Assembly: GCA_964576615.1 (NCBI GenBank)
Contig: CAZNUU010000004.1
Location: forward strand, 4,663-68,662
DNA length: 64,000 bases
Direction: 5' to 3'
DNA from: an uncultured Candidatus Saccharibacteria bacterium
GTDB lineage: Bacteria; Patescibacteriota; Minisyncoccia; Phycocordibacterales; DATDWN01
Position numbers and translations under genes: made by a program. A model generated the notes under the pieces. It worked only from the letters and a program-made list of their open reading frames with translations. It did no database searches and had not been told where the DNA came from. Positions 5,235 to 44,339 of this stretch are shown piece after piece. The stretch's first letter is position 1. Every line of letters starts with the position of its first letter.

Positions 5235-5243
5235 CTCTTATGC

Positions 5244-5540: not shown

Positions 5541-5544
5541 CACG

Positions 5545-28244: not shown

Positions 28245-28422
28245 AAAATTAAGGAGTGAAACGACTATAATTTACTTAACCCAAGCACCACTTTATTGAT
28301 TTAAAAAAAGAAGTATGATAACTTTCAAGAGCGAAATTATATCGAGAAATGGCACTTACTTGGTGTATAAAGTGGTGCTGGGTAATGATTTTTATAGTCA
28401 CTACGCTCGTTAAAAATCAACC
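28245..28422 (+). promoter_or_regulatory. Structured leader element, copy 1. It has conserved 5' and 3' modules, a covarying long stem and a possible 32-codon uORF. It ends 9 nt upstream of the rplK ATG.
   Basis: The 5' module aaaattaaggagtgaaacgactataatttacttaaccca lies at 28245-28283. The stem arms cccaagcaccacttta at 28280-28296 and aaagtggtgctgggt at 28369-28383 pair. The 3' module tgatttttatagtcactacgctcgttaaaaatcaacc follows. The uORF runs 28315-28413. Confidence 0.55.
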
Positions 28423-28848
28423 ATGGCAAAGAAAGTAGTTAAAAAATTAAGACTTATTCTCACTGCAGGTAAGGCAACTCCTGCTCCTCCAGCTGGCCCT
28501 ATTTTAGGTCAGGCCGGGGTTAATATTGGAGAATTTGTTAAGCAGTTTAATGATGCATCTGCAAAAATGGCAGGGGATTTAACACCTGTTTCTGTTTCTG
28601 TTTACGACGATAGGTCTTTTACTTTCAAACTAAAAACTCCTCCAGCTTCCAATCTAATTTTAAAAGCTGCAAACAAAGATAAAGGTTCCGGTAAAAATAC
28701 AGTTTCAAAGGCAGGTAGTATTACCAAAGCCCAACTAAAAGCAATTGCGGAAAAGAAAATGCCAGACTTGAGTGCGAACGATATTGAAGCCGCAATGAAA
28801 ATTATTGCAGGTAGTGCTCGTTCGATGGGGATTGAGGTTAAGGGATAA
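28423..28848 (+). CDS. rplK: 50S ribosomal protein L11.
   Basis: [35 protein letters not shown] matches L11. Confidence 0.9.
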
Positions 28849-28865
28849 TACCGAAAAACCTAAAT

Positions 28866-28895
28866 GAAAAAAGACACTTATGTAAAGTGTCTTTT
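28866..28895 (+). terminator. Hairpin followed by a T-run, after rplK.
   Basis: aagacactt-atgtaa-agtgtctt, followed by ttttct. Confidence 0.55.
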
Positions 28896-28954
28896 TTCTT
28901 GTTTTCGTGATAGTACAAGGTCAGACGTTAACAGTTTTTTGAAAGGAAGAAACG

Positions 28955-29584
28955 ATGTCAGCCAAGAACATTCTGTCCAATGGGATTTGTTTGTCGGACC
29001 GATACATTCCGAACTACGACAAACTCCAAGAAGTACTGAGGGTGATGCGTTCTCTGGGACACACAATTTCGATGACCCAGGGCGTTTACGACCTCATCCA
29101 CCCCGGGCACACCCGGTATCTCGAGAAGGCGAAATCCTTCGGGGATATCTTGGTCGTGGCTGTGGATACGGATGAGTACACCCGACTGCGCAAGCAGAGG
29201 GAAAATGAGCGTCGGCCAGTTGTGCCGTTCGAAGAGAGGCTGGAACTTCTAGCCAACCTGCGCACAGTCGACATACTGACTGTGCGGGACGTAACGGAAC
29301 ACGAGAAGGATCCGACACACGTAATAAAGATCGTACAACCGGATGTTCTCGTCATGTCGCGATCAACGAAGGATGTGGGGAAAGATTGGTACGACGAGCT
29401 TCGCAAACTCTGCGGACGTCTCGAGGTACTCGAGCCGCAGTCAACGGGCTCAACAACCAAACAACTTCGTGATCTCATGATGGACGGGGCTTCTGGACTT
29501 GTCGATCACCTCCGTGAGACGATCGACAATTACTTCAGGGCGGCCGGCCGAGAGGTGACGTTTGGTAAAAGGAGGGATGGATGA
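28955..29584 (+). CDS. Cytidylyltransferase-like (HxGH) nucleotidyltransferase. It is GC-rich.
   Basis: GVYDLIHPGHTRYL ... ILVVAVDTDEYTRLRK ... RPVVPFEERLELLANLRTVD matches the TagD / RfaE-domain-II style nucleotidyltransferase fold. It is the first gene of a GC-rich island. Confidence 0.55.
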   Translation: MSAKNILSNGICLSDRYIPNYDKLQEVLRVMRSLGHTISMTQGVYDLIHPGHTRYLEKAKSFGDILVVAVDTDEYTRLRKQRENERRPVVPFEERLELLANLRTVDILTVRDVTEHEKDPTHVIKIVQPDVLVMSRSTKDVGKDWYDELRKLCGRLEVLEPQSTGSTTKQLRDLMMDGASGLVDHLRETIDNYFRAAGREVTFGKRRDG

Positions 29585-30441
29585 GGGCATTACTCGCCTA
29601 CGTTCCTGTCTTGAACCAACGTCACGTTGATTGGTTCAAGAGACATGAGGAGAGTCCGCTCTACCTCATACCGCAAGAGATGGCGGTGGGTTTCTTACCG
29701 CGACTCTCTCGAAATATTGCGGCTGTTTCTCCCGAGACGACCGCAACATCGATCAGATTCAACGGGTTGATACGAGAGGTGGCAATATTCAATCCCGAAA
29801 ACTGGGATCCGCGTTTGGCAAAAGACAGTGGGTGGAAAGATTGGGTTTTGCCAGACGAGGATATCTCACACGAAGTAGCTGAGAGGTACCTCAAACCGAT
29901 CGGAGCTTCGTGCCTCTTCGAAGAAATCTGGGCACGTTGGGATATGACCGCTGTACAAAAAATGCAGCCGGTCATTCCAGATGTGATAGTCAGCGAGTCC
30001 GAATTTGACCAAGTTCGGATGAGGTTAGCTGAGTGCCGAAAGACAGACAGCCCGGATTGGTGGCGGCAGATTGGTGCGGTATTGTTTGATGCGGGAGGTG
30101 AACCGATTTCATCTGCCTGCAACTTACACATGCCGAACGAATACGAGACGTATATCTTCGGAGATCCACGTCTCAATGTTGATGCCGGTCAGATCGGCAA
30201 GTACACCTCGCTTCACGCCGAGAAGGCTGTCATTGTTTTGGCGGCCAGGCTGGGTCGTCCGACGAACGGCGGATCGATGTATGTCACAGTTTTTCCTTGC
30301 GAGGACTGTGCCAGAGAGATCGCGTTCGCCGGGATTTCCAAAGTGTTCTTTCGTGAAGGGTACTCTGCTCTCAATGCTCGAGAAGTCTTTCGATCATGGG
30401 GAGTGGAAGTGGTCCAAGTCAAAGGCCCCGAGTCCGCGTAA
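29581..30441 (+). CDS. Two-domain protein. The N-terminal domain (~180 aa) is unknown. The C-terminal domain is a CMP/dCMP deaminase zinc-binding domain. It is GC-rich.
   Basis: The C-terminal SLHAEKAVIVLAARLG ... VFPCEDCAREIAFAGI gives the HAE...PCxxC deaminase signature. It overlaps the previous gene in an ATGA arrangement. Confidence 0.55.
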   Translation: MRALLAYVPVLNQRHVDWFKRHEESPLYLIPQEMAVGFLPRLSRNIAAVSPETTATSIRFNGLIREVAIFNPENWDPRLAKDSGWKDWVLPDEDISHEVAERYLKPIGASCLFEEIWARWDMTAVQKMQPVIPDVIVSESEFDQVRMRLAECRKTDSPDWWRQIGAVLFDAGGEPISSACNLHMPNEYETYIFGDPRLNVDAGQIGKYTSLHAEKAVIVLAARLGRPTNGGSMYVTVFPCEDCAREIAFAGISKVFFREGYSALNAREVFRSWGVEVVQVKGPESA

Positions 30442-30457
30442 GCGGCCGGGGCCTTGT

Positions 30458-30913
30458 CTATTTCTTCCAGCCGAGAGTCACCAGAAGACGGTTTTCGGCA
30501 GTCATGTCTTCTGTTTTTTTCTCGCCAACAAGAAAATGAAAGTGCAAGTGGTCTAGAGTGGCGCCTGTATACTCCATGTCCCCTGACCTTGCAAACATAG
30601 AGTACCCAGTTACTCCGAGATGGTCCTCGAGCCAAGCGAGAAGTTCAAAAAGTTCCACTATCTCTCTCGTGTCTAGCTCGCTAGCTCTCTTCATGTGCCT
30701 CTTTGGCACGAGCAAGTAATGGTGAACACTCCCCAGGTAGGGGAAGTTGTTGGGACAGACGTACCACCACTCCGTTTCATGGATAGTGGTCGGGAGTGTC
30801 TGCTCTTCTTCCGATCCACCTCGACAGAAGTAGCAGATACCAGCGTCAATCAATTTCTGCATTCTTCTTCTTTGTTCTGGATCACGCGAGTTACTCATAT
30901 TCACTTGAGACAT
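30458..30913 (-). CDS. HIT (histidine triad) family protein. It is GC-rich.
   Basis: The histidine triad LDHLHFHFLVG is present. A CYFC zinc-binding-like motif lies near the N-terminus. Confidence 0.65.
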   Translation of the reverse strand: MSQVNMSNSRDPEQRRRMQKLIDAGICYFCRGGSEEEQTLPTTIHETEWWYVCPNNFPYLGSVHHYLLVPKRHMKRASELDTREIVELFELLAWLEDHLGVTGYSMFARSGDMEYTGATLDHLHFHFLVGEKKTEDMTAENRLLVTLGWKK

Positions 30914-30998
30914 GCGTTATACCTCTTTCGGATTTCTAACATTTTAAATATAAAAAGCAAGTCGCCCCAGAATTTTGGGGCGACTCAGTGCAGAAGGA

Positions 30999-31908
30999 CT
31001 AGACCGTGACCGGGATGTCGTTCATCACTTCTCCCGGGTGATACTCACGCAGCTCGAAGTGATTGGGTCGAAAATCGAACAGGTCACTGACCCTCTCTCC
31101 TTCTTCGGTGAGATACATCGTCGGAAACTGTCGTGTCTCTCGCTCCACAATTTTCTTTGCAGCTTCCATCTGGTCTTCGTAGATGTGGCTGTTGTGGGTT
31201 GAGTGAACAAACAGGTGCGGCTCGTAACCAAGCACATGTCCGAGCATCATGGTGAGCGCTGCGTACTGGATGGTGTTCGACGGTACGCCGATGGGGAAAT
31301 CGGCAGACCTTTGATCCATACGCAAGCTGAGTCGCTTGTTCATCACGGTGATTTCAATGTCACCGTGACATGGTGCGACGACAACTTTCCTCTTACGGCC
31401 TAAGTGTTGGATCGCGTAGTGTGGAATCCAGGAGGTGATCTTGTGAGTGATCACATCGGGGTAGTCACGAATCTGCTCGATCACTTCTCGGAACTGATTA
31501 AAGGTCCCGCCGTCGGGTGTCGTGTACTGGAACGCGCCGCCATACGAACCCGGACCCATATCGTACGGCTCAAGGTCGAAGTCGGCACATTTCTCTGGTG
31601 TGGCCCATTTCTCCATCCACCAGTTGACTCCCCACTTCTCAGCGAGTTCACGTGCGTCGCGGACACCGTGAATGAAACCGAGAAGCTCGCCGATCGGTTT
31701 TCGCCAGAAGCCCACCTTTCGTTCGGTGAGTACTGGGAAGCCGTTCGAGAGGATGTAACTCATCGGTGCGAGGTCGAGGACAACGTAACGCCCGGTCCTC
31801 TGGAATGGATTCTTGGCGTACTCGCCGCTTGCCAGAATCTGTGCCAGGAAATTCTTGTACTGCGTATCCGGCGTACGAAGGCTATACGGTCGATAATTCG
31901 GATGCATG
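30999..31908 (-). CDS. thyA: Thymidylate synthase (ThyA family). It is GC-rich.
   Basis: The catalytic VVAPCHGDIEI (PCH motif) is present. QRSADFPIGVPSNTIQYAALT retains the Asn equivalent of E. coli N177, indicating dUMP specificity. The start was chosen at the Met preceded by AAAGGA (MHPNYR). Confidence 0.7.
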
Positions 31909-31964
31909 CTAGTCCTTTCAAAAAAGCAGATCTTTTGTGATACTAGCATCTAACTTTTTTAAGT

Positions 31965-31996
31965 CAAAGGAAGAGCCGCACCCACTGGTGCGGCCC
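31965..31996. terminator. GC-rich hairpin between folA and thyA. It shares its stem sequence with the hairpin at 23495-23525.
   Basis: agagccgcacc-cactg-gtgcggccc. Confidence 0.45.
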
Positions 31997-31999
31997 AAG

Positions 32000-32491
32000 T
32001 TATCGTCGGTACTCGACGACATTGAACGAGAATTCGTTCTCTTTGTCAGCATCATGTCGAAAGAGGGAGGAGCCGACGTATTCCCTGGGAATTTCTGGGA
32101 AAAATGTGTCACCTCCCTCGATCTCAGTTTCAACGTGGGTTACGACAAGTCGTTCCACGGCAGAAAGGAAGAGTGAGTAAATCTCTCTTCCACCCATCAC
32201 GAAGACTTCGCGTGTTCTTGAGAGTCTTTGAATCTCAGCGAGATGCAGACCCAACATGGTGTGGCAGCCTGCGGCCCTAAATGTCGGGTCGTTGGTCAGG
32301 ACGATGTTCTCTCTACCAGGTAGGGGTTTGTACGCCGCTGGGATTGACTTGTAGGTTTTTCTGCCCATGACAACCACATGACCCATGGTCGTGTTCTTGA
32401 AGTGATCCATGTCTGCCTTGAGGTGCCAAGGGATGTTGTCTTTCTTGCCAATCACACGATTGGCATCCATTGCCACGATAATACTGAGCAT
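32000..32491 (-). CDS. folA: Dihydrofolate reductase. It is GC-rich.
   Basis: The N-terminus MLSIIVAMDANRVIGKKDNIPWHLKADMDHFKNTTMGHVVVMGRKTY matches DHFR. AAGGAG lies 7 nt upstream of the chosen ATG (complement 32489-32491). Confidence 0.8.
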   Translation of the reverse strand: MLSIIVAMDANRVIGKKDNIPWHLKADMDHFKNTTMGHVVVMGRKTYKSIPAAYKPLPGRENIVLTNDPTFRAAGCHTMLGLHLAEIQRLSRTREVFVMGGREIYSLFLSAVERLVVTHVETEIEGGDTFFPEIPREYVGSSLFRHDADKENEFSFNVVEYRR

Positions 32492-32549
32492 GAGAGACTC
32501 CTTTTCTATCGCGATACTACTCTTTATAAAGGCTAGGGTCAATGTTAAG

Positions 32550-34235
32550 ATGAAAGAAATGAAAGATCTCTTAGGATCAGTAATTTTAGAAGAGTTGAAG
32601 GCTCGTGGTGTTGAAAATGCGATAGTGAATTTCGATTACCCAACTCACATGGAAATGGGCGATTTGTCTACTAATGTGGCCATGGTTTCTGCGGGGAAAT
32701 TGAAAACCAGCCCCATCGATTTAGCAAATGAGATAAAAGAGGCAATTCAAATTAAAGGAGTTAAACATATCAAAAGAGTTGATGTGATTAAACCAGGTTT
32801 TATCAATTTTTTCTTTGATGAACATTATTTCGCGAAAAATGTAGATGAGATTTTGAATAAAAAAGAGGAATTTGGGAAAAATAACAGATTTGGTGGAGAG
32901 AAGGTAACTATCGAATATACCGATCCGAATATTTTCAAAGAATTTCATATTGGACACCTAATGCCAAATGTTGTGGGGGAGTCTCTCTCTAGAATAATTG
33001 AAAATAGTGGGGCAAAAGTTAAGAGGGTAAATTATCAAAGTGACATTGGGCTTAATGTTGCAAAGGCGGTCTGGGCAGCCCAGAAAGGGATAAAAGTGGA
33101 AGAAGCCTATGCCTATGGTCATAAAGAGTATGAGGAAAATGAAGAAGCTAAAGGAGAAATTATAGAAATAAACAAAAAGATTTACGAAAAAAGTGATAGT
33201 GAGATAAATAAAATTTACGAAAAAGGGAGAAAGGAGTCACTCAATTATTTCGAGAAGATCTATAAATTGCTTGGTACAAAATTTGATCATTATTTCTTTG
33301 AAAGCGAAGTAGCGGAGTTTGGTAAAGAAACGGTGGAAAAAAATATTGGTAAGGTATTTGAAAAATCCGAAGGTGCCGTTGTCTTCAAAGGTGAAAAATT
33401 CGATAAATCACTTCATACTAGAGTTTTTATCAATAAAGAGAATTTGCCAACTTACGAAGCAAAGGAACTTGGCTTAGCTAAAATAAAATATGATGTTTCG
33501 CCGTATGATTTATCAATAATTGTTACAGGTGACGAGATAAATGAATATTTTAGAGTTTTGATTAAAGCTATGTTATTAGTTTTCCCAGATTTAGCAGCGA
33601 AAACAAAACACATTTCCCACGGAATGCTAAAACTTTCGACTGGCAAGATGTCGTCGAGGACCGGTAATGTTATCACAGCCGAAAGTTTAATTGCTGAGGT
33701 TAAGGAGAAAGTCTTACATAAGATGAAGAACCCTTCTTTATCTGAATATTCAGAAAATTTAGTTAAGGGATTCTCCGAGAGTGAACTCAGTGATATTGCC
33801 GAAGTTGTTTCTATTGGGGCAATAAAATACTCCATCCTTCATCAAGCCATTGGAGGAGATATAATTTTTGATTTCGATAAATCGATTTCATTTGTCGGAG
33901 ACTCTGGTCCCTACCTCCAGTATTCAACTGTTAGAGCTAATTCGATATTAAGAAAATCAGAAGGGAAATCAGGGGAGATGCCGAGTGATTGGGAAACAAC
34001 AAATCTGGAGAGGTTTTTGGAGAGGTTCCCAGGTGTTGTGGAAAAAGCAGGGAAGGAATATGCATCACACTACATTGCGACGTACCTCATTAATTTAGCT
34101 GGAGAATTTAATTCTTTTTATTCTGGTGAAAAGATTTCTGGTTCACCTTATCGTCTGGCTTTAACTGAAGCTTTTATCCAAGTAATGAATTCTGGGCTTT
34201 ATTTACTAGGTATCAAAGTTCCAGAAAGAATGTAA
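32550..34235 (+). CDS. argS: Arginine--tRNA ligase.
   Basis: The HIGH-type motif HIGHLMPNVVGESL is present. The C-terminal DALR domain with SGPYLQYSTVRANSILRK is present. The start was placed at 32550, because the longer ORF would overlap folA. Confidence 0.8.
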   Translation: MKEMKDLLGSVILEELKARGVENAIVNFDYPTHMEMGDLSTNVAMVSAGKLKTSPIDLANEIKEAIQIKGVKHIKRVDVIKPGFINFFFDEHYFAKNVDEILNKKEEFGKNNRFGGEKVTIEYTDPNIFKEFHIGHLMPNVVGESLSRIIENSGAKVKRVNYQSDIGLNVAKAVWAAQKGIKVEEAYAYGHKEYEENEEAKGEIIEINKKIYEKSDSEINKIYEKGRKESLNYFEKIYKLLGTKFDHYFFESEVAEFGKETVEKNIGKVFEKSEGAVVFKGEKFDKSLHTRVFINKENLPTYEAKELGLAKIKYDVSPYDLSIIVTGDEINEYFRVLIKAMLLVFPDLAAKTKHISHGMLKLSTGKMSSRTGNVITAESLIAEVKEKVLHKMKNPSLSEYSENLVKGFSESELSDIAEVVSIGAIKYSILHQAIGGDIIFDFDKSISFVGDSGPYLQYSTVRANSILRKSEGKSGEMPSDWETTNLERFLERFPGVVEKAGKEYASHYIATYLINLAGEFNSFYSGEKISGSPYRLALTEAFIQVMNSGLYLLGIKVPERM

Positions 34236-34261
34236 ATGTGTTATATTGAGGCTATCTAGGA

Positions 34262-34460
34262 GCCTAATCACCTCCGATTAATCGGGAAGAAGTTCGTCTG
34301 ATTTACGAATGTAGAACCCGACGGGTAAGCCCGTTATAGCAGTAATGAGAAACCCTAAGCCTAAACAAGATTACTTGTCGGCCGGGTAAAGCAAGGTGGT
34401 ACCACGGTTCGAGTTATCTCACCGTCCTTGCACGGAGTTTCCGTGTAAGGAATTTTTTAT
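34262..34460 (+). promoter_or_regulatory. Candidate T-box riboswitch leader upstream of ileS.
   Basis: The T-box-like sequence aagcaAGGTGGTACCaCGG lies at 34389-34408. It is followed by the terminator hairpin ccttgcacgg-agttt-ccgtgtaagg and aatttttt at 34427-34458. The leader is short, so stem I is not fully resolved. Confidence 0.5.
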
Positions 34461-34533
34461 TACCTGTCCCGTACTAAATTTTTGATTAGGTAATAAAAAA
34501 TTCATATGAACTGTTTAAAATTTTAGTACTGGG

Positions 34534-37500
34534 ATGGAAAAAGAAGAAAAAAAATTAGGCAAATCAGATGTGGCTTTGAAAGAAGAAGCTATTTTAGAGT
34601 CCTGGCAAAAAAATAGAATATTTGAAAAGACTTTGGAAAAAAATTCCCCGAAGGGTGAGTTTGTTTTTTATGATGGGCCACCTTTTGCCACGGGCTTACC
34701 TCACTACGGTAGTTTACTTGGCTCCATCGCTAAAGATCTTTTTCCGCGTTACAAAACCATGCAAGGCTATTATGTACGCCGTCGCTGGGGCTGGGATTGT
34801 CACGGGCTTCCAATTGAAAATTTGGTGGAAAAGAAATTAGGCCTTAAACACAAAAAAGACATTGAGGTTCTGGGTATAGAGAAATTTAACGAGGAATGTC
34901 GGAGCCAGGTTCTAACTTATGTACACGATTGGAAAAAGTACATTGATCGGGTAGCTCGCTGGGTTGATTTTGATGGCTCCTACAAAACCATGGATGCCAG
35001 TTTTACTGAAAGTGTCTGGTGGGCACTTTCCGAAATGAATGAAAAAGGACTTCTCTACGAAGGTCGTAAGGTCTTACTTTATTGTCCGCACTGCGAAACT
35101 CCTCTGGCCAAGGCCGAGATTGCTATGGATAACTCTTACAAGGACATAACAGAGGAGGCTGTGACAGTAGAATTCAAGCTAAAAGATGACCCTAAGACTT
35201 CTATTCTCGCCTGGACAACAACACCGTGGACTCTCCCAGGTAACGTGGCGTTGGCAGTTCATCCTGATATTGATTACGTAGTAATAGAGAAGAAAGATAT
35301 GGGTGTGGGGGACTTGGTTCGATTTATTCTAGCTAAAAAAAAGCTCGAGGATATTTTTGGTAAAGACGAATATAGGGTTGTTGAAGAAAAAAAAGGAAGG
35401 GATTTAGTTGGCCTTGAATATGAACCTCTCTATGAAATTGAAGCAGTTAAAAAAACAGGTAAAAAAGCTTGGTATGTGACTGGAGCGGATTTTGTTAACA
35501 CGGAAGAGGGAACAGGTGTAGTTCATACAGCTGTAATTTATGGGGAGGACGATTTTAATCTAGGCCAGAAAATTGATTTACCGATGGTGCCCCTACTTTT
35601 GCCAAATGGAAATTTTAACCTGGAGGCACCAGAGTTTATTAGAGGTGTCTATCTAAAAAAAGCAGAGGGTTTGATAAAAGAAGATCTCGAGAAGCGTGGG
35701 CTTTTATTCGATAAGAAAATGAATACCCACTCCTATCCGCATTGTTACAGGTGTGGCACGCCACTCATATACAATGCACTTTCTAGCTGGTTCATTGATG
35801 TTCAGAAGATAAAGGACAAAATAATTTCGACAAACGAAAACATTAATTGGATGCCAGATCACCTGAAACACGGACGTTTTCTAGATATCATGACTAACGC
35901 GCCAGATTGGGCAATAAGCCGAAATCGTTTTTGGGCTTCACCTTTGCCGATTTGGAAAGATAGCCAAGGGAATATAACAGTTGTAAGTGGTTTGGAAGAT
36001 TTGAAAAAGCATCTTAGGAAAACTGGCAATAAATTCTTTTTAATAAGACACGGAGGGTCACTCAGCAATGAAAAAAATGTAAGCAGTTTAGTGCCGGGTG
36101 AAGAAAATGATTGCCTCACGAAAAAAGGCGAAGATCAGGTTAGAAAATCAGCCAAAGAGTTTAAAGACAAGGTTGATTTAATTATTACCTCTAATTTTAG
36201 AAGGACGCAAAAAACAGCCGAAATTTTCGCTGAAGAAAAAGGATTAAGTAAGGAGGATATCGTGGTTGATGATAGCCTGCATGAATTTATTGATGAGGGT
36301 GACCGGGCTGAAAATTATGCAGATGTCAGAAAGAGGATGGTTCATGTTCTCTCGCGTTTAGACAAAGAATATTCGGATAAAAATATTCTGGTCGTTTCTC
36401 ACGAGTATCCATTGCGAGTCCTGCTTTCCTCCCACGAATCTCTCGACGATTTTGAAGAGAGTGAAAACTTTAATAATAAATTTACTTACCTGGATAATGC
36501 CAAAATTACCCCAATAAATTTTATTTCGCTACCCCGAAATATCTTTGCTCAAGTTGATTTTCACCGACCTTATATTGATGAGGTTCAGTTATACAACGAT
36601 ATAGGGGATTCTATATATAGAATTCCGGAGGTAATTGATTGTTGGGTAGAGTCAGGCTCCATGCCTTTTGCAGAATATAATTATCCTTTTGCGCATAAGA
36701 AAGAATTTGAAAAGAGAAGCCCTGCAGATTTTATAGCAGAGTACATACCCCAAACACGTACCTGGTTTTACTATATGCATGTCGTTTCCAACGCTTTGTT
36801 TGGGCATGAAGCATTTAAAAACGTTGTCACGACGGGGAATGTTCTTGCGATAGATGGTAGCAAAATGAGTAAATCAAAAAATAATTATACCGATCCGCTT
36901 ATATTAATGGATAAATTTGGCGCAGATTCGTTACGCTACTATTTGACGACCAGTGTAGTGATGCAAGCAGAAGATTTGGCTTTTTCGGATAAGGATGTGC
37001 AAGAAATTCACCAGAGGCTTCTAAATATTTTGAGAAATGTTGCGGTATTTTACGAGACTTATAAAAGTGATTCAGAGCCAAAATTAAATCACGAGAATGT
37101 TTTAGACAAATGGATATCTATGCGCCTCAAACAATTGAGGGATGAAACCACGGTAAATTTAGATAGATTTGATTCAATCCGAGCTGGCAGACCGCTTAAG
37201 CAGCTTGTGGATGATTTGTCTACTTGGTATTTGAGAAGATCTAGAGAGCGTTTAAAGATGGGCGGAGAAGAGGGGGAGAAAGCACTCCAGCATTTAGCCT
37301 TTATTCTCGGGGAGCTATCAAAGCTTATTGCACCGTTTGTGCCGTATGTTGCTGAGGAAATTTACCAGAAAGTTAAAGGCAAAAGAGGCCTACAAAGTGT
37401 GCATTTAGAAAGTTGGCCAGAAATGAGGGATGTAAATGTTGAACCAGATTTTCTAGCTATCATGTCTAATACCAGAGAAATAGTAACTCAAGCTCTCGAG

Positions 37501-37914
37501 TTAAGGCAGGAGGCTAATATAAAGGTGCGTCAACCCCTGGCGTCACTCACTATTCCTGAGAGTTTGCCAAAAGAGTTTTTGGAAATTTTACGAGATGAAG
37601 TTAATGTCAAAGAGGTAAAAGTTGGTGGTGATTTAAATCTTGATACTAATTTAACCCCCGAACTTCTCGCGGAGGGGCTGGTACGGGATGTTATAAGAGG
37701 GATTCAAGATGTGAGAAAAACAGAAGGTTTAAATCCAAATCAAAAGATAAAGATAGTTGCTCATGCCGATAAGGAGTTAGAAAAAATGATTAATTCAAAT
37801 TTAAGCCAAATTAAACAGCCGACTCAGGTATCTGGCGTTTCTTTCTCGAGAGAAGAACAAAAACATAAAATTGCACTTGAAAAAAACAAACTCTCTGTTT
37901 CAATAGAGAAGTAA
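34534..37914 (+). CDS. ileS: Isoleucine--tRNA ligase with an inserted histidine-phosphatase (PGAM-like) domain.
   Basis: The HIGH-class motif PHYGS and the KMSKS motif are present. WAISRNRFWASPLPIW is present. The insert between that and DCWVESGSMPFA carries FLIRHGGSLSNEKN and VVSHEYPLRVLL, which are the RHG and SH motifs of histidine phosphatases. Confidence 0.85.
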   Translation: MEKEEKKLGKSDVALKEEAILESWQKNRIFEKTLEKNSPKGEFVFYDGPPFATGLPHYGSLLGSIAKDLFPRYKTMQGYYVRRRWGWDCHGLPIENLVEKKLGLKHKKDIEVLGIEKFNEECRSQVLTYVHDWKKYIDRVARWVDFDGSYKTMDASFTESVWWALSEMNEKGLLYEGRKVLLYCPHCETPLAKAEIAMDNSYKDITEEAVTVEFKLKDDPKTSILAWTTTPWTLPGNVALAVHPDIDYVVIEKKDMGVGDLVRFILAKKKLEDIFGKDEYRVVEEKKGRDLVGLEYEPLYEIEAVKKTGKKAWYVTGADFVNTEEGTGVVHTAVIYGEDDFNLGQKIDLPMVPLLLPNGNFNLEAPEFIRGVYLKKAEGLIKEDLEKRGLLFDKKMNTHSYPHCYRCGTPLIYNALSSWFIDVQKIKDKIISTNENINWMPDHLKHGRFLDIMTNAPDWAISRNRFWASPLPIWKDSQGNITVVSGLEDLKKHLRKTGNKFFLIRHGGSLSNEKNVSSLVPGEENDCLTKKGEDQVRKSAKEFKDKVDLIITSNFRRTQKTAEIFAEEKGLSKEDIVVDDSLHEFIDEGDRAENYADVRKRMVHVLSRLDKEYSDKNILVVSHEYPLRVLLSSHESLDDFEESENFNNKFTYLDNAKITPINFISLPRNIFAQVDFHRPYIDEVQLYNDIGDSIYRIPEVIDCWVESGSMPFAEYNYPFAHKKEFEKRSPADFIAEYIPQTRTWFYYMHVVSNALFGHEAFKNVVTTGNVLAIDGSKMSKSKNNYTDPLILMDKFGADSLRYYLTTSVVMQAEDLAFSDKDVQEIHQRLLNILRNVAVFYETYKSDSEPKLNHENVLDKWISMRLKQLRDETTVNLDRFDSIRAGRPLKQLVDDLSTWYLRRSRERLKMGGEEGEKALQHLAFILGELSKLIAPFVPYVAEEIYQKVKGKRGLQSVHLESWPEMRDVNVEPDFLAIMSNTREIVTQALELRQEANIKVRQPLASLTIPESLPKEFLEILRDEVNVKEVKVGGDLNLDTNLTPELLAEGLVRDVIRGIQDVRKTEGLNPNQKIKIVAHADKELEKMINSNLSQIKQPTQVSGVSFSREEQKHKIALEKNKLSVSIEK

Positions 37915-38498
37915 TGTCGTATCACATATATTCTACAGAAGGGATTATCTTAAAACGCATACCCCAGGGCGAAGCCAGTGCTACTTTTTATATTTTGACC
38001 GAAAAATTTGGTCTTATTATTGCTTCGGCAAGGTCAGTAAGAGTGATGGTCTCAAAACTTCGTCCAGCCCTTCAAGAGTTTGAAAACATAAACCTGTCTT
38101 GCATTAAAGGGAAAAATGGTTGGAAGGTGACAAATGTAGTTAGTTTGGGGAGTTATTTTTTTGAGAGTCAAGATTTTGCTAAAAAGATACTTGCTCAAAT
38201 CTCTTCTTTTTTGATGCGGACAATAACGGGAGAGTTACCTCATCCTAAAATATTTGAGACGGTAAAAAGTGGATTTGAGTTTCTTCGGACTCTTAACAAA
38301 AAAGAAGTTTCTAATTTTGAGGTCTTAATTATGCTGAGGATCCTATTTGAGCTAGGTTACGTTGAGAAAAATCCAGATATTAGAATCTATCTTGATGATT
38401 TAACAAAGTGGAGTACTGGTTTACTGGAGAAAATTGAAGAAAACAAGCTTGAAACCATCGCCATAATTAACAAGGCCTTGAAAGAGAGCCATTTGTAA
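37914..38498 (+). CDS. recO: DNA repair protein RecO (short form).
   Basis: The N-terminal OB-fold region reads STEGIILKRIPQGEASATFYILTEKFG. 194 aa. Confidence 0.6.
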   Translation: MSYHIYSTEGIILKRIPQGEASATFYILTEKFGLIIASARSVRVMVSKLRPALQEFENINLSCIKGKNGWKVTNVVSLGSYFFESQDFAKKILAQISSFLMRTITGELPHPKIFETVKSGFEFLRTLNKKEVSNFEVLIMLRILFELGYVEKNPDIRIYLDDLTKWSTGLLEKIEENKLETIAIINKALKESHL

Positions 38499-38655
38499 AA
38501 TCTATGGTATTTTTTGCGAATTTCTGCGTTACTCGCTCCGTTTGCTCCACGCGCAGTATTACTCATACAGCTTGGTCGCAATACTCGCTCGTGCCTTGAA
38601 CTTCACAAAAAATCCTCATAGCTTTCCTGATTACGGTTCATGATATAATTTAAAT

Positions 38656-40551
38656 ATGGATGAAGAAGAGAGTAGTATAGAGCGCCTGAAAAAATCGCTA
38701 TATACCAGGAATGAAAAACTTGTTCCTAAAGAAAAAAGGACACCAGTTTCTCCCCATGAAGTTGAGGCGCCGCCAGATTGGGGTGGTAAGAGGACATTTG
38801 ATTATTCTCCAGAGGTTGTAATAAAAAGAAATAATTCTTTTTTCAATAAATTTTTAATCGGCAGCCTTGTCTTTTTTACCCTATCTTTAGCTATTGCTCT
38901 CTTTATCTTTTTTGGTGGTCTTAACATGATTTCATCTAATAATCTCACTCTCGAGATTACTGCACCAAGTTCGGTTTCCTCTGGCGAAGAATTAGACATT
39001 GGTTTAACCATAACCAATCAAAATAGAACGGATCTGGAAGAAGCCTCCCTCATTATTGATTATCCGGAAGGTGCACAATCTGTGGGGGATAATAATAAAC
39101 CTTTGGTTCACGAAAAAATTGATCTTGGTACAATCGCCAAACATGACAAAACAAATTACACCGTGAGAGCGCTACTTTTTGGCGATAAAGACGTAACAAA
39201 GACGTTTAATTTCAGAATTGAGTACAAAGTTAAGGGTTCAAATGCCGTTTTCTCAAAAGAGAAATCCTTCGATGTTCTAATCGGTTCTTCACCGTTACTT
39301 CTCAATGTAAGCTACCCAACTCAGATTACTTCAGGCGATACAATTACTTTAAAATTAGAAATTACCTCAAACTCGTCTGTGCCCATTAGGAATGCTCTGG
39401 TGAAAATTGAATATCCATACGGGTTTACGTATAAAACTTCAAATGTGAAACCACTGCGCAGTAATTCTGTTTGGAACATAGGGGACTTGAAAAACGGGGA
39501 CAAGAAAACACTGACAGTTACAGGGGTTCTCATTGGCCAGAATCAAGAGGATAGATCATTTAGAATTTCTGCTGGAACGCCTGATTCAGGCTCGAACGAT
39601 TTTACTGAAAGCCTAGCTCAAACTATTGTTACTTTAGGTATAAGAAAATCGTTTTTCGATTTGGGAATAAACCTGGTTGGGGGGACTGTAGTTCATCCCA
39701 ATGAAAATATACAAATGCAAGTCATGTGGGAGAATACTTTACCGGACAGAGTCCTTAACAATGTTATTTTAGTTAAGCTCTCTGGAAATGCTATTGATCG
39801 GTCCCTCATAAGTGTTAATAATGGAGGGTTTTACAGATCTGGCGATGACACTATTACTTGGGACAAAAACGGCGATAATGATCTACAAGAACTATCTCCG
39901 GGGGATCATAATCAAGTGACATTTTCACTACATTCCCTACAGGATAATTTAAATAGGCTCGTAAAAAATCCCCATATCGATGTGAATGTGGTTATGACCG
40001 GAGACAGGTCTGGAACAAATGTAGAGAGCATATCTTCAGTTGCTGATTACTCAGTTAAAATTTCCTCCACTCTTACTCTGGTAGGCAAAACATACAGAAG
40101 TGTCGGTCCGTTCTCAAACACCGGCTCGATACCGCCTCGGGTTGATAAAGAAAGCACTTATACTATTTATTGGTCTGTTTCTAACACAACGAATGACTTA
40201 AAAAATACTCTGGTTACGGCAACTCTACCTCCGGGAGCAGTTTGGAAAAACGAGACTTCAGCTGGTACCGGCAGTATTTCATATGATCCAGATAGTAGGT
40301 TAGTAACTTGGAATATCGGGAATGTCTCAGCAGGAGTTGGGTATAGCTACCCTGTTCTAGAAGCATATTTTAAAGTTGGCCTAACGCCAAGTGCAAACCA
40401 AGTCGGCTCGCCGGCAGTGGTTATAAACGAATCTAAACTTGAGGCGCTAGATACATATAGTGGCAATACTTTAACAGAAGGTATAACTACTTTAACCACC
40501 CATTACGCTGATCCGGATTTTTCTACTGGTAAGGATAATGTGACAAAGTAA
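38656..40551 (+). CDS. Single-pass membrane protein with a large extracellular beta-sandwich repeat region (CARDB/DUF11-like). Function unknown.
   Basis: The topology is a cytoplasmic N-terminus, then the TM segment FLIGSLVFFTLSLAIALFIFF, then ~540 aa of repetitive extracellular sequence. Confidence 0.45.
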   Translation: MDEEESSIERLKKSLYTRNEKLVPKEKRTPVSPHEVEAPPDWGGKRTFDYSPEVVIKRNNSFFNKFLIGSLVFFTLSLAIALFIFFGGLNMISSNNLTLEITAPSSVSSGEELDIGLTITNQNRTDLEEASLIIDYPEGAQSVGDNNKPLVHEKIDLGTIAKHDKTNYTVRALLFGDKDVTKTFNFRIEYKVKGSNAVFSKEKSFDVLIGSSPLLLNVSYPTQITSGDTITLKLEITSNSSVPIRNALVKIEYPYGFTYKTSNVKPLRSNSVWNIGDLKNGDKKTLTVTGVLIGQNQEDRSFRISAGTPDSGSNDFTESLAQTIVTLGIRKSFFDLGINLVGGTVVHPNENIQMQVMWENTLPDRVLNNVILVKLSGNAIDRSLISVNNGGFYRSGDDTITWDKNGDNDLQELSPGDHNQVTFSLHSLQDNLNRLVKNPHIDVNVVMTGDRSGTNVESISSVADYSVKISSTLTLVGKTYRSVGPFSNTGSIPPRVDKESTYTIYWSVSNTTNDLKNTLVTATLPPGAVWKNETSAGTGSISYDPDSRLVTWNIGNVSAGVGYSYPVLEAYFKVGLTPSANQVGSPAVVINESKLEALDTYSGNTLTEGITTLTTHYADPDFSTGKDNVTK

Positions 40552-40574
40552 TATTAATTCTATATATTAAGAAA

Positions 40575-41885
40575 ATGAAAAAAGACGAGGCCTTGATGGA
40601 AAAAATAGTTTCTTTGTGTAAACGTAGAGGCTTTGTTTTGGCCAGTTCTGAAATCTACGGTGGACTCTCCGGTGTTTGGGATTATGGTCACTATGGTCAA
40701 GCTCTAGCGCACAATGTAAAAGATCTTTGGTGGAAACACTTTGTCACGGAGCAAGAAAACATGTTCGGTCTGTCGACTTCCACTTTAATGCCTGAAGCTG
40801 TCTGGAAGGCGAGTGGACATTTGGATGGGTTTTCAGATCCAATGGTAGTTTGCAAAAATGGTCATGCTTTTAGGGAAGACCAACTAGAGGATTCTAAAAA
40901 ATGTCCAGAATGTGGAGCTGAATTTACTCAAAGTAGCAATTTCAACTTAATGTTTCCAGTTTCGATGGGAGCAAATAAAGATAGCAAAAATCAAGCATAT
41001 CTCCGAGGGGAAATCGCCCAAGGTATGTTTGTAAATTTTAAAAATATTCTCGATACCATGCATCCTAAGCTCCCTTTTGGGATTGCCCAAATCGGTAGAG
41101 CATACAGAAATGAGATTGCGCCCAGAGATTTTCTTTTTCGAGTTCGTGAGTTTGATCTTATGGAATTTGAATATTTTGTTCGGGAGTCGGATTGGGAAAA
41201 ATATTTTGAAATGTGGAGAGATCAAATGTGGCATTGGATAGAGCGAGTAGGTATAGACAAACATAGAGTCACTGAGCTTGAGGTGAGGGCCGAAGACAGA
41301 GCACATTATTCCAAAAGAACAATTGATTTTGAATTCGAATATCCTTTTGGCAAGAAAGAGCTCTATGGTTTGGCTTATAGAACTGATTATGATCTAAAAA
41401 ATCATTCGGCTGCATCTGGGGTGGAGCTTTCTTACTTTGATGAGGAAAATAAAGACAAGTTTATTCCACATGTTATTGAGCCGACATTTGGTCACGGCAG
41501 AACAATTCTCTCGGTTATCTTGTCTGCATACAGAGAGGATGAAATGGGAGGAGAATCCAGAAATTATCTTGCCTTTAGGCCTAGTATAGCTCCAGTCAAA
41601 GTAGCTGTTTTCCCATTACTTAAGAACAAACCTGAATTAGTCGAGAAAGCTCGCGAAATTTACAAAAAACTGAAAAAGGAATTTGGCGATGTTGAATTTG
41701 ATGATAATGGCAACATCGGCAAACGTTACAGAAGACAAGATGAGATTGGCACACCCTGGTGCATTACCGTTGATTTTGAAACCATCGAGAAAGATGCGGG
41801 AGTTACGGTGCGGGATCGTGATACAGGTAAGCAAGACAGGATGCAGGTAGAAGAACTCATCTCCTATATAAAAGAGAGACTATAA
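40575..41885 (+). CDS. glyQS: Glycine--tRNA ligase (alpha2 dimeric type).
   Basis: The N-terminus IVSLCKRRGFVLASSEIYGGLSGVWDYGHYG is present. Class II motifs and a C-terminal anticodon-binding domain are present. Confidence 0.85.
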   Translation: MKKDEALMEKIVSLCKRRGFVLASSEIYGGLSGVWDYGHYGQALAHNVKDLWWKHFVTEQENMFGLSTSTLMPEAVWKASGHLDGFSDPMVVCKNGHAFREDQLEDSKKCPECGAEFTQSSNFNLMFPVSMGANKDSKNQAYLRGEIAQGMFVNFKNILDTMHPKLPFGIAQIGRAYRNEIAPRDFLFRVREFDLMEFEYFVRESDWEKYFEMWRDQMWHWIERVGIDKHRVTELEVRAEDRAHYSKRTIDFEFEYPFGKKELYGLAYRTDYDLKNHSAASGVELSYFDEENKDKFIPHVIEPTFGHGRTILSVILSAYREDEMGGESRNYLAFRPSIAPVKVAVFPLLKNKPELVEKAREIYKKLKKEFGDVEFDDNGNIGKRYRRQDEIGTPWCITVDFETIEKDAGVTVRDRDTGKQDRMQVEELISYIKERL

Positions 41886-41926
41886 ATTACTTTGTTTTTG
41901 GTTTGGGGTTGTGCTATATTCAGCTG

Positions 41927-43195
41927 ATGAATTTTAAGAAAAAAACGTTCAAAAATGGAATGCGGGCCGTTGTTGTCTCTATGCCAGAGTCTCCCTCTGT
42001 CACGGTAATGTCGATGATTGAGACAGGTTCGGAATATGAAAAAAAGAATAAAAACGGCATATCTCACTTTTTGGAGCATATGTTTTTCAAAGGTACAAAA
42101 AATCGCAAAACTTCTCTAGATATTTCTAAGGAATTTGATGGGATGGGAGCACAGCACAATGCTTTCACTTCGAACGAGGTAACTGCTTACTATGGTAAGG
42201 CAGCAAACAAAAATTTTGGGAAGATTCTGGATATTATTTCCGATATGTATTTAAATCCTACTTTTCCAGAGAAAGAATTAGAAAAAGAGAAGGGGGTAAT
42301 AATCGAGGAGATAAATATGTACGAGGATCTCCCTCAGAGACATGTGCACGAAGTATTTCAAGAACTTCTGTATGGTGATACACCTCATGGTTGGACTGTC
42401 TTGGGGCCAAAGGAAAACATTAGAGGAATGAAACAAAAAGATTTCATCGATTACCGGAAGACCCACTATGTTGCTAAGAAAACTCTAGTTGTAGTGGCAG
42501 GCAATGTCGCTCCCGAAGACGCCTTTAATAAAATCGAGAAAGCTTTCAAGAATATCCCTACCGGAAAAGTGGTTGGTAAAGAGAAGCTGTTGGAAAAACA
42601 AAACAAACCTGAAATAAAGATAAAGCACAAGGATACTGATCAAATGCATATAATCATCGGTTTTAGAACTTTCGATCTCTATGATAAGAGAATGCCAACT
42701 TTGAAGGTTTTAAATACTGTTCTAGGTAGAGGAATGAGTTCGAGGCTTTTCCAAAAAATGAGAGAGGAATTAGGCATTTGCTATTATATTCGTTCATACA
42801 TTAACGACCTAACAGATCATGGCAATTTTATTATTACTGCGGGTGTAGATAAGACGCGGCTGGACCAAGCTATCGTCGGCATACTTGAGGAAGTCAAAAA
42901 AATGGTAAACGAGACAGTAAAGGGAGAGGAGTTAAAAAAAGCAAAGGATTTCTTAATCGGCAATATGCATCTTAATCTAGAAGCTTCTGATGATGTTGCA
43001 AATTTTTACGGATTTCAAGAGATAATGCGGGAGATAGTAAAAACACCTGCCCAGATAGAAAAAGACATGAATAAAGTTAAGGCTGGGGACATTCAAAGAC
43101 TCGCAAAACAGATTTTTAAGAATGGCAATTTAAACCTTGCAATTGTTGGCAACGTTAAGGATGAAAAGCCTTTACGAAAAATTCTTCATTTTTAA
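41927..43195 (+). CDS. M16-family zinc peptidase (insulinase-like).
   Basis: The inverted zinc motif HFLEHMFFKGT (HxxEH) is present. The start was taken at MNFKKKTF. Confidence 0.75.
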   Translation: MNFKKKTFKNGMRAVVVSMPESPSVTVMSMIETGSEYEKKNKNGISHFLEHMFFKGTKNRKTSLDISKEFDGMGAQHNAFTSNEVTAYYGKAANKNFGKILDIISDMYLNPTFPEKELEKEKGVIIEEINMYEDLPQRHVHEVFQELLYGDTPHGWTVLGPKENIRGMKQKDFIDYRKTHYVAKKTLVVVAGNVAPEDAFNKIEKAFKNIPTGKVVGKEKLLEKQNKPEIKIKHKDTDQMHIIIGFRTFDLYDKRMPTLKVLNTVLGRGMSSRLFQKMREELGICYYIRSYINDLTDHGNFIITAGVDKTRLDQAIVGILEEVKKMVNETVKGEELKKAKDFLIGNMHLNLEASDDVANFYGFQEIMREIVKTPAQIEKDMNKVKAGDIQRLAKQIFKNGNLNLAIVGNVKDEKPLRKILHF

Positions 43196-43244
43196 TTCAT
43201 TCTCCCTTGTGTTATTATGTTTTTAGTGTTATTTTTCTATTTCC

Positions 43245-44324: not shown

Positions 44325-44339
44325 TTTTCTCTGGATTAG

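What the first reader, a model, noticed from the sequence alone, without database searches (positions are those of the whole stretch)
36000..36560. IleRS carries a complete histidine-phosphatase (PGAM-like) domain inserted in the catalytic core
Between the conserved WAISRNRFWASPLPIW and DCWVESGSMPFA segments of IleRS there are ~260 residues. Canonical enzymes have roughly 40-70 here.

The extra segment contains FLIRHGGSLSNEKN, the RHG catalytic motif. It also contains LTKKGEDQ, IITSNFRRTQKTAEI, and VVSHEYPLRVLL, the second catalytic His motif. Together these are the full signature of a phosphoglycerate-mutase-type histidine phosphatase.

IleRS is the target of natural inhibitors and carries editing insertions. 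A fused phosphatase could be a moonlighting, proofreading or regulatory module.
Basis: partly seen in the sequence, partly recalled or inferred. Interest (0 to 1): 0.6.

Follow-up and report, generated by a model that had tools for sequence, protein, structure and literature searches.

The report
Phosphatase domain nested inside IleRS
This candidate-phyla-radiation (CPR) bacterium's isoleucyl-tRNA synthetase carries a complete-looking histidine phosphatase enzyme folded into one of its surface loops; the same pairing recurs in well over a hundred related species (as a nested domain or as a neighbouring gene) and seems never to have been described or tested.

Summary

The insert sits in the peripheral CP3 subdomain, replacing a loop of about 6 residues.

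It is not a one-off:
- All 120 closest homologues carry it.
- An exhaustive search found it in most of the top 150 50%-identity clusters.
- At least 117 GTDB species genomes have it, nearly all Patescibacteria/CPR.

R505, H506, R557, E593 and H623 are invariant. E584 is kept in 93%, so the domain is probably catalytically active.

The closest stand-alone relatives (~190 aa) lie immediately upstream of insert-less ileS genes. Of 70 evaluable metagenome loci, 50 are adjacent and 12 nested. Some IleRS carry extra copies at other sites.

The window's copy has lost about 24 residues of the substrate cap. Another subclade lost it too.

The substrate and the link to aminoacylation remain unknown. It is not a phosphoglycerate mutase by NCBIfam cut-offs. 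I found no literature on it.

The parts
34234..34432 (+). Divergent T-box-like leader in the ArgRS-IleRS spacer (tentative)
   Evidence: RF00230 scores 35.1 bits (gathering 93), E 2.7e-6, over model positions 1-219, with the motif AAGGUGGUACCACGG. It was not seen in the gathering scan or in 8 related nested-type loci.
34425..34451 (+). Terminator-like hairpin (12 pairs) plus T-run, right after the T-box motif
34534..37914 (+). ileS gene, 1126 aa, type-2 (eukaryote/MupA-like) isoleucyl-tRNA synthetase with the nested phosphatase
   Evidence: ORF. TIGR00392 ileS scores 803 bits against a cut-off of 621. Pfam finds tRNA-synt_1, Anticodon_1 and DUF5915. Best PDB matches are IleRS2 8c8v and TtIleRS 1ile.
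34702..34713 (+). HIGH signature, here H57-Y-G-S60 (HxGS variant)
   Evidence: HxGS is typical of this subclade only.
34534..35907 (+). Rossmann first half, CP core, CP1 editing domain (WTTTPWTLP 227-235, GTGVVH 326-331, D340 conserved) and CP2 (aa 1-458)
   Evidence: invariant columns
35908..36015 (+). CP2-3 linker and N-terminal arm of CP3 (aa 459-494), including WAISRNRFWASPLPIW
   Evidence: The homologous linker in ScIleRS is ARDWNVSRNRYWG 453-465.
36016..36549 (+). Nested histidine phosphatase domain (aa 495-672), His_Phos_1 / PGAM superfamily branch 1
36046..36054 (+). RHG motif: R505, nucleophile H506, G507
   Evidence: R and H are 100% conserved in 91 diverse and 120 close relatives.
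36202..36204 (+). R557, second phosphate-binding arginine (SxxxRxxxTA motif)
   Evidence: 100% conserved
36283..36285 (+). E584, predicted proton donor
   Evidence: 93% E, the rest mostly D
36286..36309 (+). Truncated cap segment: 8 residues (FIDEGDRA) where the family mode is 32
   Evidence: The nearest relative P0189 has 33.
36400..36402 (+). H623, second catalytic histidine (VVSHE)
   Evidence: 100% conserved
36550..36636 (+). C-terminal arm of CP3 (aa 673-701), VDFHRPYIDE...; lacks the CxxC zinc ligands present in many relatives
36637..37083 (+). Rossmann second half with DCWVESGSMPFA and KMSKS (aa 777-781, nt 36862-36876)
37084..37911 (+). Anticodon-binding and C-terminal domains (Anticodon_1, DUF5915)
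32409..34235 (+). ArgRS gene upstream (conserved synteny ArgRS-[phosphatase]-IleRS-RecO)
37914..38498 (+). RecO-like gene downstream (conserved synteny)

Best explanation
The insert is a genuine, independently folding and very probably catalytically active branch-1 histidine phosphatase. It sits in the CP3 connective-peptide subdomain of a type-2 isoleucyl-tRNA synthetase. It is the single-polypeptide version of a conserved phosphatase-ileS partnership in Patescibacteria (CPR): some lineages encode a ~190-aa phosphatase of the same clade directly upstream of an insert-less ileS, and others, including this one, carry it inside CP3. Chemistry, inferred from the superfamily: H506 attacks a phosphomonoester to form a phospho-histidine intermediate; R505, R557, H623 and N512 hold the phosphate; E584 acts as the acid/base. 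The IleRS part keeps its HIGH-type and KMSKS motifs, its editing-site motifs and its anticodon-binding domains, so it should still charge tRNA-Ile. I infer that the phosphatase works as a tethered accessory enzyme for IleRS. It would remove a phosphate from something that IleRS meets, makes or is modified by, rather than changing the aminoacylation chemistry. Shown: domain identity, fold, conservation, distribution and gene linkage. Inferred: catalytic activity and functional coupling. Unknown: the substrate.
For: Identity and fold:
- Pfam His_Phos_1 E 2e-22.
- The full-length model (pLDDT 83) keeps the domain folded within IleRS.

Selection on catalysis:
- R505, H506, S553, R557, E593 and H623 are 100% conserved, R601 98%, E584 93%, N512 89% across 91 sequences from different 50%-identity clusters.
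- The signature RHNREERH is present in 101 of 120 close relatives.
- The insert overall is only about 40% identical between members, against about 70% for the IleRS core.

Distribution:
- All 120 best full-length homologues carry PF00300.
- Most of the top 150 cluster representatives are IleRS with the insert.

Linkage:
- The closest stand-alone relatives sit 1-9 nt upstream of insert-less ileS.
- Of 70 evaluable metagenome loci of that clade, 50 are adjacent and 12 nested.
- Additional copies of the same phosphatase lie at other IleRS sites in P0142 and P0166, and P0058 has 4 in tandem.

IleRS integrity: TIGR00392 scores above its cut-off, and KMSKS and the editing motifs are conserved.
Against: - No activity has been measured and no IleRS-specific phospho-substrate is known.
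- The nearest folds are ordinary small-molecule phosphatases.
- CP3 is a variable, permissive surface subdomain, so a passenger domain would be tolerated there.
- The whole ArgRS-IleRS-RecO neighbourhood is syntenic across these lineages. Adjacency may therefore be partly inherited gene order rather than repeated selection.
- One stand-alone relative (P0170) is not next to ileS.
- Loss of the cap in this copy and in a subclade could mean relaxed specificity or decay.
- I could not read model coordinates, so I do not know whether the phosphatase pocket faces the synthetic site, the editing site or the tRNA.
Confidence: 0.6

Rival explanations
1. Passenger enzyme. The domain is an ordinary housekeeping small-molecule phosphatase (PhoE/PspA/CobC-like) with no mechanistic link to IleRS. 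Its gene happened to lie upstream of ileS. A tandem duplication plus deletion then dropped it into the permissive CP3 loop. It persists because the cell needs the phosphatase and an essential, constitutively expressed host gene is a safe place for it.
For: The closest structures are all small-molecule phosphatases. The typical family cap length (~32 aa) equals that of such enzymes. The insert evolves faster than the host. CP3 is variable between IleRS types. Adjacency offers a simple duplication route, and P0058 (IleRS N-half plus phosphatase repeats) looks like such an intermediate.
Against: About 89% of the clade's loci are tied to ileS. The pairing holds across phosphatases only 42-63% identical. 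The same phosphatase type was inserted again at two other IleRS sites. The cap that defines small-molecule specificity is dispensable in two lineages while the catalytic residues stay.
Confidence: 0.25
2. Non-catalytic module. The domain binds a phosphorylated ligand or acts as a scaffold or regulatory sensor for IleRS, as a pseudo-enzyme, without turning substrate over.
For: The cap is lost in the window's copy and in 26 of 120 relatives. Phosphate-binding residues would also be conserved in a sensor. In vertebrate IARS1, CP3 is a protein-docking surface.
Against: The nucleophile H506, H623 and the proton donor E584 are all kept (100%, 100%, 93%). Pseudo-enzymes of this fold usually lose at least one of them.
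Confidence: 0.08
3. It is a cofactor-dependent phosphoglycerate mutase, supplying a missing glycolytic step in a reduced CPR genome.
For: The best NCBIfam hit for the insert is dPGM_arch (63.9 bits). Several PDB neighbours are annotated as PGM.
Against: The score is far below the equivalog cut-off (63.9 against 225; other dPGM models score 17-30 against 81.7-366). At 150-200 aa the domain lacks the longer mutase cap and C-terminal tail. The window's copy has almost no cap.
Confidence: 0.05
4. Artefact or selfish element: a misassembled chimeric ORF, or an intein-like mobile insertion that is removed after translation.
For: The insertion is in a conserved essential gene. The C-terminal junction often reads ...PLPHN, superficially like an intein's terminal HN.
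Against: The architecture is in frame in 117 independent species genomes and hundreds of metagenome contigs. The fold is purely His_Phos. There is no Hint-domain match. The residue after N is not C, S or T. The window itself reads PRN.
Confidence: 0.02

Closest known systems
Type-2 (eukaryote/archaeal-like) IleRS: Priestia megaterium IleRS2 (8c8v), Thermus thermophilus IleRS (1ile), MupA/MupB, yeast/Candida IleRS
   Same: Full domain set: Rossmann fold, CP core, CP1 editing, CP2, CP3, anticodon-binding and C-terminal domains. PDB matches have E about 1e-199, and TIGR00392 scores above its cut-off.
   Different: 178 extra residues forming a phosphatase domain at the tip of CP3, where 8c8v has about 6 residues. 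The CP3 zinc ligands are absent here. The HIGH motif reads HYGS.
Histidine phosphatase superfamily branch 1 (PF00300): PhoE/YhfR, PspA phosphoserine phosphatase, CobC, riboflavin-pathway HFP, SixA
   Different: The domain is nested inside another enzyme. The family has its own N-x-Y-x3-RHG start, shared with the ileS-adjacent stand-alone clade. The window's copy has a SixA-like minimal core without a cap. No specific equivalog model is met.
Synthetases or nucleic-acid enzymes carrying an extra catalytic domain: NCBIfam NF040702 'ileS_w_GNAT'; Rv2228c-type bifunctional RNase H/acid phosphatase (PRK07238); TFIIIC tau55 histidine phosphatase domain
   Different: Those are end-to-end fusions or separate subunits. 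Here the domain is inserted within a loop of the synthetase's catalytic body, and it also exists as an operon partner. None of them involves IleRS plus a phosphatase.
Lineage-specific insertion modules of class Ia synthetases (LeuRS leucine-specific domain, zinc knuckles in CP regions)
   Same: Insertion into connective-peptide loops of the split Rossmann fold. CP3 is already known to vary (zinc motif in TtIleRS, absent in Ca/SaIleRS).
   Different: Known modules are small, non-enzymatic structural or tRNA-contacting elements. This one is a whole enzyme with an intact active site.

Membership tests
Isoleucyl-tRNA synthetase (TIGR00392 ileS equivalog) | Whole-protein score above the curated equivalog cut-off | tested here: met
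   803.2 bits against a cut-off of 621.4, in two stretches split by the insert
Isoleucyl-tRNA synthetase | Class I signature motifs HIGH and KMSKS | tested here: met
   KMSKS at 777-781. HIGH is present as HYGS, with the fourth His replaced by Ser as in about 100 of 120 close relatives.
Isoleucyl-tRNA synthetase | CP1 editing domain with the Thr-rich and GTGxVH/Asp motifs | tested here: met
   W227-T-T-T-P-W-T-x-P235, G326-T-G-x-V-H331 and D340 are invariant in the 64-sequence alignment.
Isoleucyl-tRNA synthetase | Aminoacylation of tRNA-Ile | not testable with these tools
   Needs an enzyme assay.
Histidine phosphatase superfamily, branch 1 (Pfam PF00300) | Profile score above the gathering threshold | tested here: met
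   80.2 bits, E 2.1e-22, against a cut-off of 21.7
Histidine phosphatase superfamily, branch 1 | Catalytic core: RHG His nucleophile, two Arg, second His, acidic proton donor | tested here: met
   R505, H506, R557, H623 and E584 are present in the window and 93-100% conserved in the family.
Histidine phosphatase superfamily, branch 1 | Alpha/beta PGM fold | tested here: met
Histidine phosphatase superfamily, branch 1 | Phosphomonoesterase activity through a phospho-histidine intermediate | not testable with these tools
   Needs an assay of wild type against H506A.
2,3-BPG-dependent phosphoglycerate mutase (dPGM equivalogs NF038349, TIGR01258 and others) | Score above the equivalog or subfamily cut-off | tested here: not met
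   63.9 against 225 (NF038349); 24.2 against 81.7 (TIGR01258)
Phosphohistidine phosphatase SixA (TIGR00249) | Score above the equivalog cut-off | tested here: not met
Phosphoserine phosphatase PspA (NF045917) and alpha-ribazole phosphatase CobC (TIGR03162) | Score above the equivalog cut-off | tested here: not met
   42.8 against 350, and 46.9 against 162.9
Intein / Hint self-splicing element | Hint-domain profile match and a C/S/T residue at the +1 junction position | tested here: not met
   No Hint family in the Pfam scans. The junction residues do not fit.

The most novel reading that the evidence does not exclude
The phosphatase is a dedicated IleRS accessory activity of a kind not described for any aminoacyl-tRNA synthetase. 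It would act on a macromolecular or IleRS-bound substrate. Examples: clearing a 3'-phosphate from damaged tRNA-Ile before charging; reversing an inhibitory phosphorylation of IleRS, such as one made by a HipA-type kinase toxin; or destroying a phosphorylated IleRS-directed inhibitor. That would make the CPR phosphatase-IleRS pair a new translation quality-control or self-defence module. The repeated loss of the small-molecule cap with retention of the catalytic core, the repeated insertions into IleRS, and the operon form are compatible with this but do not prove it.
Probability: 0.2. Interest if true: 0.85.

Novelty: new variant of a known kind. Interest (0 to 1): 0.68.

Why it matters
Aminoacyl-tRNA synthetases are among the most conserved enzymes. 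A complete, apparently active second enzyme inside the catalytic body of a bacterial one is unusual. Here it is a rule for a large part of the Patescibacteria (CPR), a huge and poorly understood radiation of tiny symbiotic bacteria.

The same phosphatase clade also exists as a tightly packed upstream gene. This gives a natural fused-versus-separate comparison that makes the partnership directly testable.

If the phosphatase serves IleRS, it defines a new accessory activity in translation. If it is only a passenger, it is a clear example of how reduced genomes nest genes within essential genes.

There is also a practical point. NCBI names these proteins only 'class I tRNA ligase family protein'. 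The insert may therefore be degrading automatic annotation of an essential marker gene in CPR genomes.

Tried and rejected
- The search for related loci with a 25-sequence insert alignment failed because it had no conserved 7-10 column stretch. I replaced it with a hand-made junction DNA pattern.
- The listing of cluster members for the stand-alone relatives returned no names.
- Model coordinates are not exposed. I could not measure the distance or orientation of the phosphatase pocket relative to the synthetic site, the editing site or the tRNA path.
- A neighbour-joining tree of nested and stand-alone phosphatases did not separate the two cleanly: 14 stand-alone plus 5 nested sequences fell in one clade. 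The order of events, gene first or insert first, is left open.
- I considered whether the unusual HxGS HIGH motif is linked to the phosphatase and rejected it. It is specific to the subclade; diverse nested IleRS and insert-less partners mostly have HxGH.
- I looked for a remnant of a stand-alone phosphatase gene in the ArgRS-IleRS spacer and found none.
- I looked for another His_Phos gene in the window and found none.
- I looked for the T-box-like leader in two-gene loci and in 8 other nested-type loci and found none.
- The intein idea was rejected (no Hint match, wrong junction residues).
- The first ArgRS-synteny count was invalid because of a frame error and is not used.
- Six literature searches found nothing on IleRS or any synthetase with a histidine-phosphatase/PGAM domain. 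The library lacks most subscription journals, so absence is not proof.
Full report
**1. The observation**

The window encodes a 1126-aa ORF at 34534-37914 on the + strand.
- WAISRNRFWASPLPIW, aa 459-474
- FLIRHGGSLSNEKN, aa 502-515 (R505-H506-G507)
- LTKKGEDQ, aa 528-535
- IITSNFRRTQKTAEI, aa 550-564 (R557)
- VVSHEYPLRVLL, aa 620-631 (H623)
- DCWVESGSMPFA, aa 702-713
- KMSKS, aa 777-781

The two IleRS motifs are separated by 227 residues rather than about 260. A close relative without the insert (P0001) has 61 there.

Pfam scores the whole protein as tRNA-synt_1 + His_Phos_1 + Anticodon_1 + DUF5915. His_Phos_1 scores 74 bits (E 1.6e-20) against a cut-off of 21.7. The insert alone scores 80 bits, E 2.1e-22.

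Alignment to solved IleRS2 of Priestia megaterium (8c8v) matches query 16-494 to chain 13-478 and query 673-1033 to chain 485-852. So aa 495-672 (nt 36016-36549) replace about six residues.

**2. What the host protein is**

NCBIfam TIGR00392 (ileS) scores 803 bits against a cut-off of 621. The next-best models are the MupA/MupB type-2 enzymes. KMSKS is canonical. The editing-site motifs (WTTTPWTLP, GTGxVH, D340) are invariant in a 64-sequence family alignment. The HIGH motif reads HYGS. That is a peculiarity of this subclade, not of phosphatase-bearing IleRS in general.

Structural papers place the site as follows. The segment after the CP2-3 linker (ScIleRS 453-ARDWNVSRNRYWG-465, equal to window 456-468) is the CP3 subdomain: ScIleRS 459-526, CaIleRS 473-534. 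CP3 is peripheral and variable, and it carries a zinc motif in T. thermophilus IleRS but not in the Candida or S. aureus enzymes (PMC7955072; PMC7191050). In human IARS1 it is a docking surface for LARS1 (PMC13439101).

The phosphatase is therefore nested in CP3, not in the Rossmann core proper. Many relatives keep CxxC...CxxC around the insert. The window's protein has lost those cysteines.

**3. What the insert is**

Every specific NCBIfam model falls far below its cut-off: dPGM 63.9 against 225, CobC 46.9 against 162.9, PspA 42.8 against 350, SixA 31.4 against 74.5. So 'PGAM-like' is right at superfamily level, but the domain is not a recognisable mutase or any named phosphatase.

**4. It is a lineage-wide architecture**

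- An exhaustive HMMER search of 1.84 billion cluster representatives, using aa 480-695, found 1245 hits at E <= 1e-3 and 173 at E <= 1e-10. Most of the top 150 are IleRS, full length (~1130-1200 aa) or fragments. In these, RHG lies about 44 residues after SRxRxW and KMSKS about 300 residues further on.
- All 120 best full-length homologues (52-67% identity) carry PF00300. Their names, where given, are 'class I tRNA ligase family protein' or 'isoleucyl-tRNA synthetase', from Paceibacterota, Zambryskibacteria, Parcubacteria and Campbellbacteria.
Their titles are almost all Patescibacteria: Paceibacteria, Yanofsky-, Nomura-, Giovannoni-, Jorgensen-, Zambryski-, Falkow-, Magasanik- and Sungiibacteria. 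Of these, 117 encode the nested domain.
- A GC-rich relative (L001) has the same ArgRS-IleRS-RecO order, with the gene broken by frameshifts.

**5. Selection on the active site**

In 91 sequences from different 50%-identity clusters:
- R505, H506, S553, R557, E593 and H623 are invariant.
- R601 is 98% conserved, E584 93%, G507 90% and N512 89%.

Among the 120 close relatives the eight-residue signature RHNREERH is intact in 101. By contrast, the insert as a whole is only about 40% identical between members, against about 70% for the IleRS core. This pattern fits an active enzyme rather than a decaying or purely structural insert.

**6. The window's copy is a trimmed variant**

Between E584 and E593 the family mode is 32 residues. 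This is the segment that forms the substrate cap in small-molecule phosphatases. The window has 8. Its nearest relative (P0189, 67% identity) has 33, so the deletion is recent and independent. A separate subclade (26 of 120, including Zambryskibacteria) has only 3-4 residues there. Both keep the catalytic residues. The cap is thus dispensable, as it is in SixA, which acts on a protein substrate. This is suggestive only.

**7. A two-gene counterpart**

The closest stand-alone relatives are about 190 aa. They start MK[LF]NN-Y...RHG, the same N-x-Y-x3-RHG signature as the insert, and they end right after the last strand.

Three of the four I looked up lie immediately upstream of an insert-less ileS (931-962 aa), with gaps of 1-9 nt, in the order ArgRS-phosphatase-IleRS-(x)-RecO. 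One (P0170) lies elsewhere. The partner IleRS has a compact zinc-knuckle CP3, with 63-69 residues between the flanking motifs.

A metagenome scan with this stand-alone clade found 401 relatives, of which the best 80 were kept. Of the 70 with enough downstream sequence:
- 50 have ileS starting within -33 to +82 nt of the phosphatase's end.
- 12 have the phosphatase about 2 kb inside ileS, which is the nested form.
- 5 have ileS 0.5-3 kb away.
- 3 have none.

About 89% of this phosphatase clade is therefore physically tied to ileS.

One caveat applies. The whole neighbourhood is syntenic across these lineages, so part of this figure reflects inherited gene order.

**8. Repeated recruitment**

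- P0142 (1419 aa) has a second copy of the same phosphatase type (129 bits to the insert HMM) in a different loop, between the post-KMSKS helix and the anticodon-binding domain.
- P0166 has a copy between DxWxxSG and KMSKS in addition to the CP3 one.
- P0058 has the IleRS N-terminal half followed by four copies.

These come from single metagenome clusters and have not been validated. If real, they are independent events placing this phosphatase in IleRS.

**9. Mechanism**

Shown: a folded branch-1 histidine phosphatase with an intact catalytic set, nested in CP3 of an otherwise complete type-2 IleRS; wide distribution in CPR; linkage to ileS both in cis and in trans.

Inferred from the superfamily mechanism: H506 is the nucleophile, R505, R557, H623 and N512 bind the phosphate, and E584 is the acid/base.

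Inferred from linkage: the phosphatase serves IleRS as a tethered accessory enzyme.

Unknown: the substrate, and whether the pocket faces the tRNA or the active sites.

I put 0.6 on this reading. The rivals are:
- Passenger phosphatase with no mechanistic link, 0.25.
- Non-catalytic sensor or scaffold, 0.08.
- True phosphoglycerate mutase, 0.05.
- Artefact or intein-like element, 0.02.

A plausible route from the adjacent gene to the nested domain is a tandem duplication joining the IleRS N-half to the phosphatase, followed by an in-frame deletion. The distance tree does not resolve the direction.

**10. Novelty**

The architecture is visible in precomputed Pfam annotations, and one member is in UniRef. 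Six full-text searches found no paper describing an IleRS, or any synthetase, with a histidine-phosphatase/PGAM domain. I class it as a new variant of a known kind: a synthetase with an accreted domain, here a whole enzyme nested in CP3 with an operon counterpart.

**11. Side observations**

- The ArgRS-IleRS spacer holds a divergent, full-length T-box match (34234-34432; 35 bits, E 2.7e-6) followed by a 12-bp terminator hairpin. It is absent from the related loci I checked.
- The window carries no other His_Phos gene.
- Four synthetase genes cluster within 13 kb.

Noticed in passing
window 34234-34451 (+): The ArgRS-IleRS spacer matches the whole T-box leader model (RF00230, 35 bits, well below the gathering score of 93; E 2.7e-6). 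It has a very short Stem I region and the motif AAGGUGGUACCACGG, followed by a 12-pair terminator hairpin and a T-run. A T-box in a CPR bacterium would be of interest in itself.
   Followed up: partly
window 34702-34713 (aa 57-60): The class I HIGH signature reads HYGS, with the fourth His replaced by Ser. About 100 of 120 close relatives have HxGS, whereas diverse nested IleRS and insert-less partners mostly have HxGH. It is therefore specific to the subclade and unrelated to the phosphatase.
   Followed up: yes
P0142, P0166, P0058 (proteins): Some IleRS variants carry extra copies of the same phosphatase at other sites: between the post-KMSKS helix and the anticodon-binding domain, between DxWxxSG and KMSKS, or four in tandem after the N-terminal half.
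   Followed up: partly
P0140 (protein): A 1066-aa IleRS-like ORF has an IS200-like transposase match inside the N-terminal half (340-461), the CP3 phosphatase, and a C-terminal GNAT acetyltransferase. It may be a chimera or misassembly. NCBIfam does have an 'ileS_w_GNAT' model (NF040702).
   Followed up: no
L001 4242-7787: In a 63% GC relative (GCA_037975565.1, 107-kb contig) the orthologous ileS with phosphatase is split into three ORFs by frameshifts, one of them in a CCC run inside the phosphatase. This is either sequencing error or a pseudogene.
   Followed up: partly
window 32409-45767: Four aminoacyl-tRNA synthetase genes cluster within about 13 kb: ArgRS 32409-34235, IleRS, a class II tRNA-synt_2b/HGTP enzyme 40575-41885, and MetRS 44340-45767. 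They are interspersed with RecO, a DUF11 surface protein, an M16 peptidase and an AI-2E transporter.
   Followed up: no
window 28000-32000: A locally GC-rich stretch (0.46-0.52 against about 0.39 elsewhere) covers a cytidylyltransferase-like gene, a dCMP/cytidine deaminase and thymidylate synthase (30999-31949, minus strand). It has several overlapping ORFs on both strands and may have been acquired horizontally.
   Followed up: no
L124 (GCA_041550235.1), 348-5579: The one stand-alone phosphatase of this clade that is not next to ileS (P0170) lies about 3.5 kb from an RtcB RNA ligase gene and a TGT gene on the opposite strand. This is probably coincidental.
   Followed up: no
L122, L130, L132, L136, L137 upstream regions: In the two-gene loci, tmRNA and SmpB, IF3 and L20 (plus L35 in L123) lie just upstream of the ArgRS-phosphatase-IleRS block, so the phosphatase sits in a dense translation-factor neighbourhood.
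   Followed up: no
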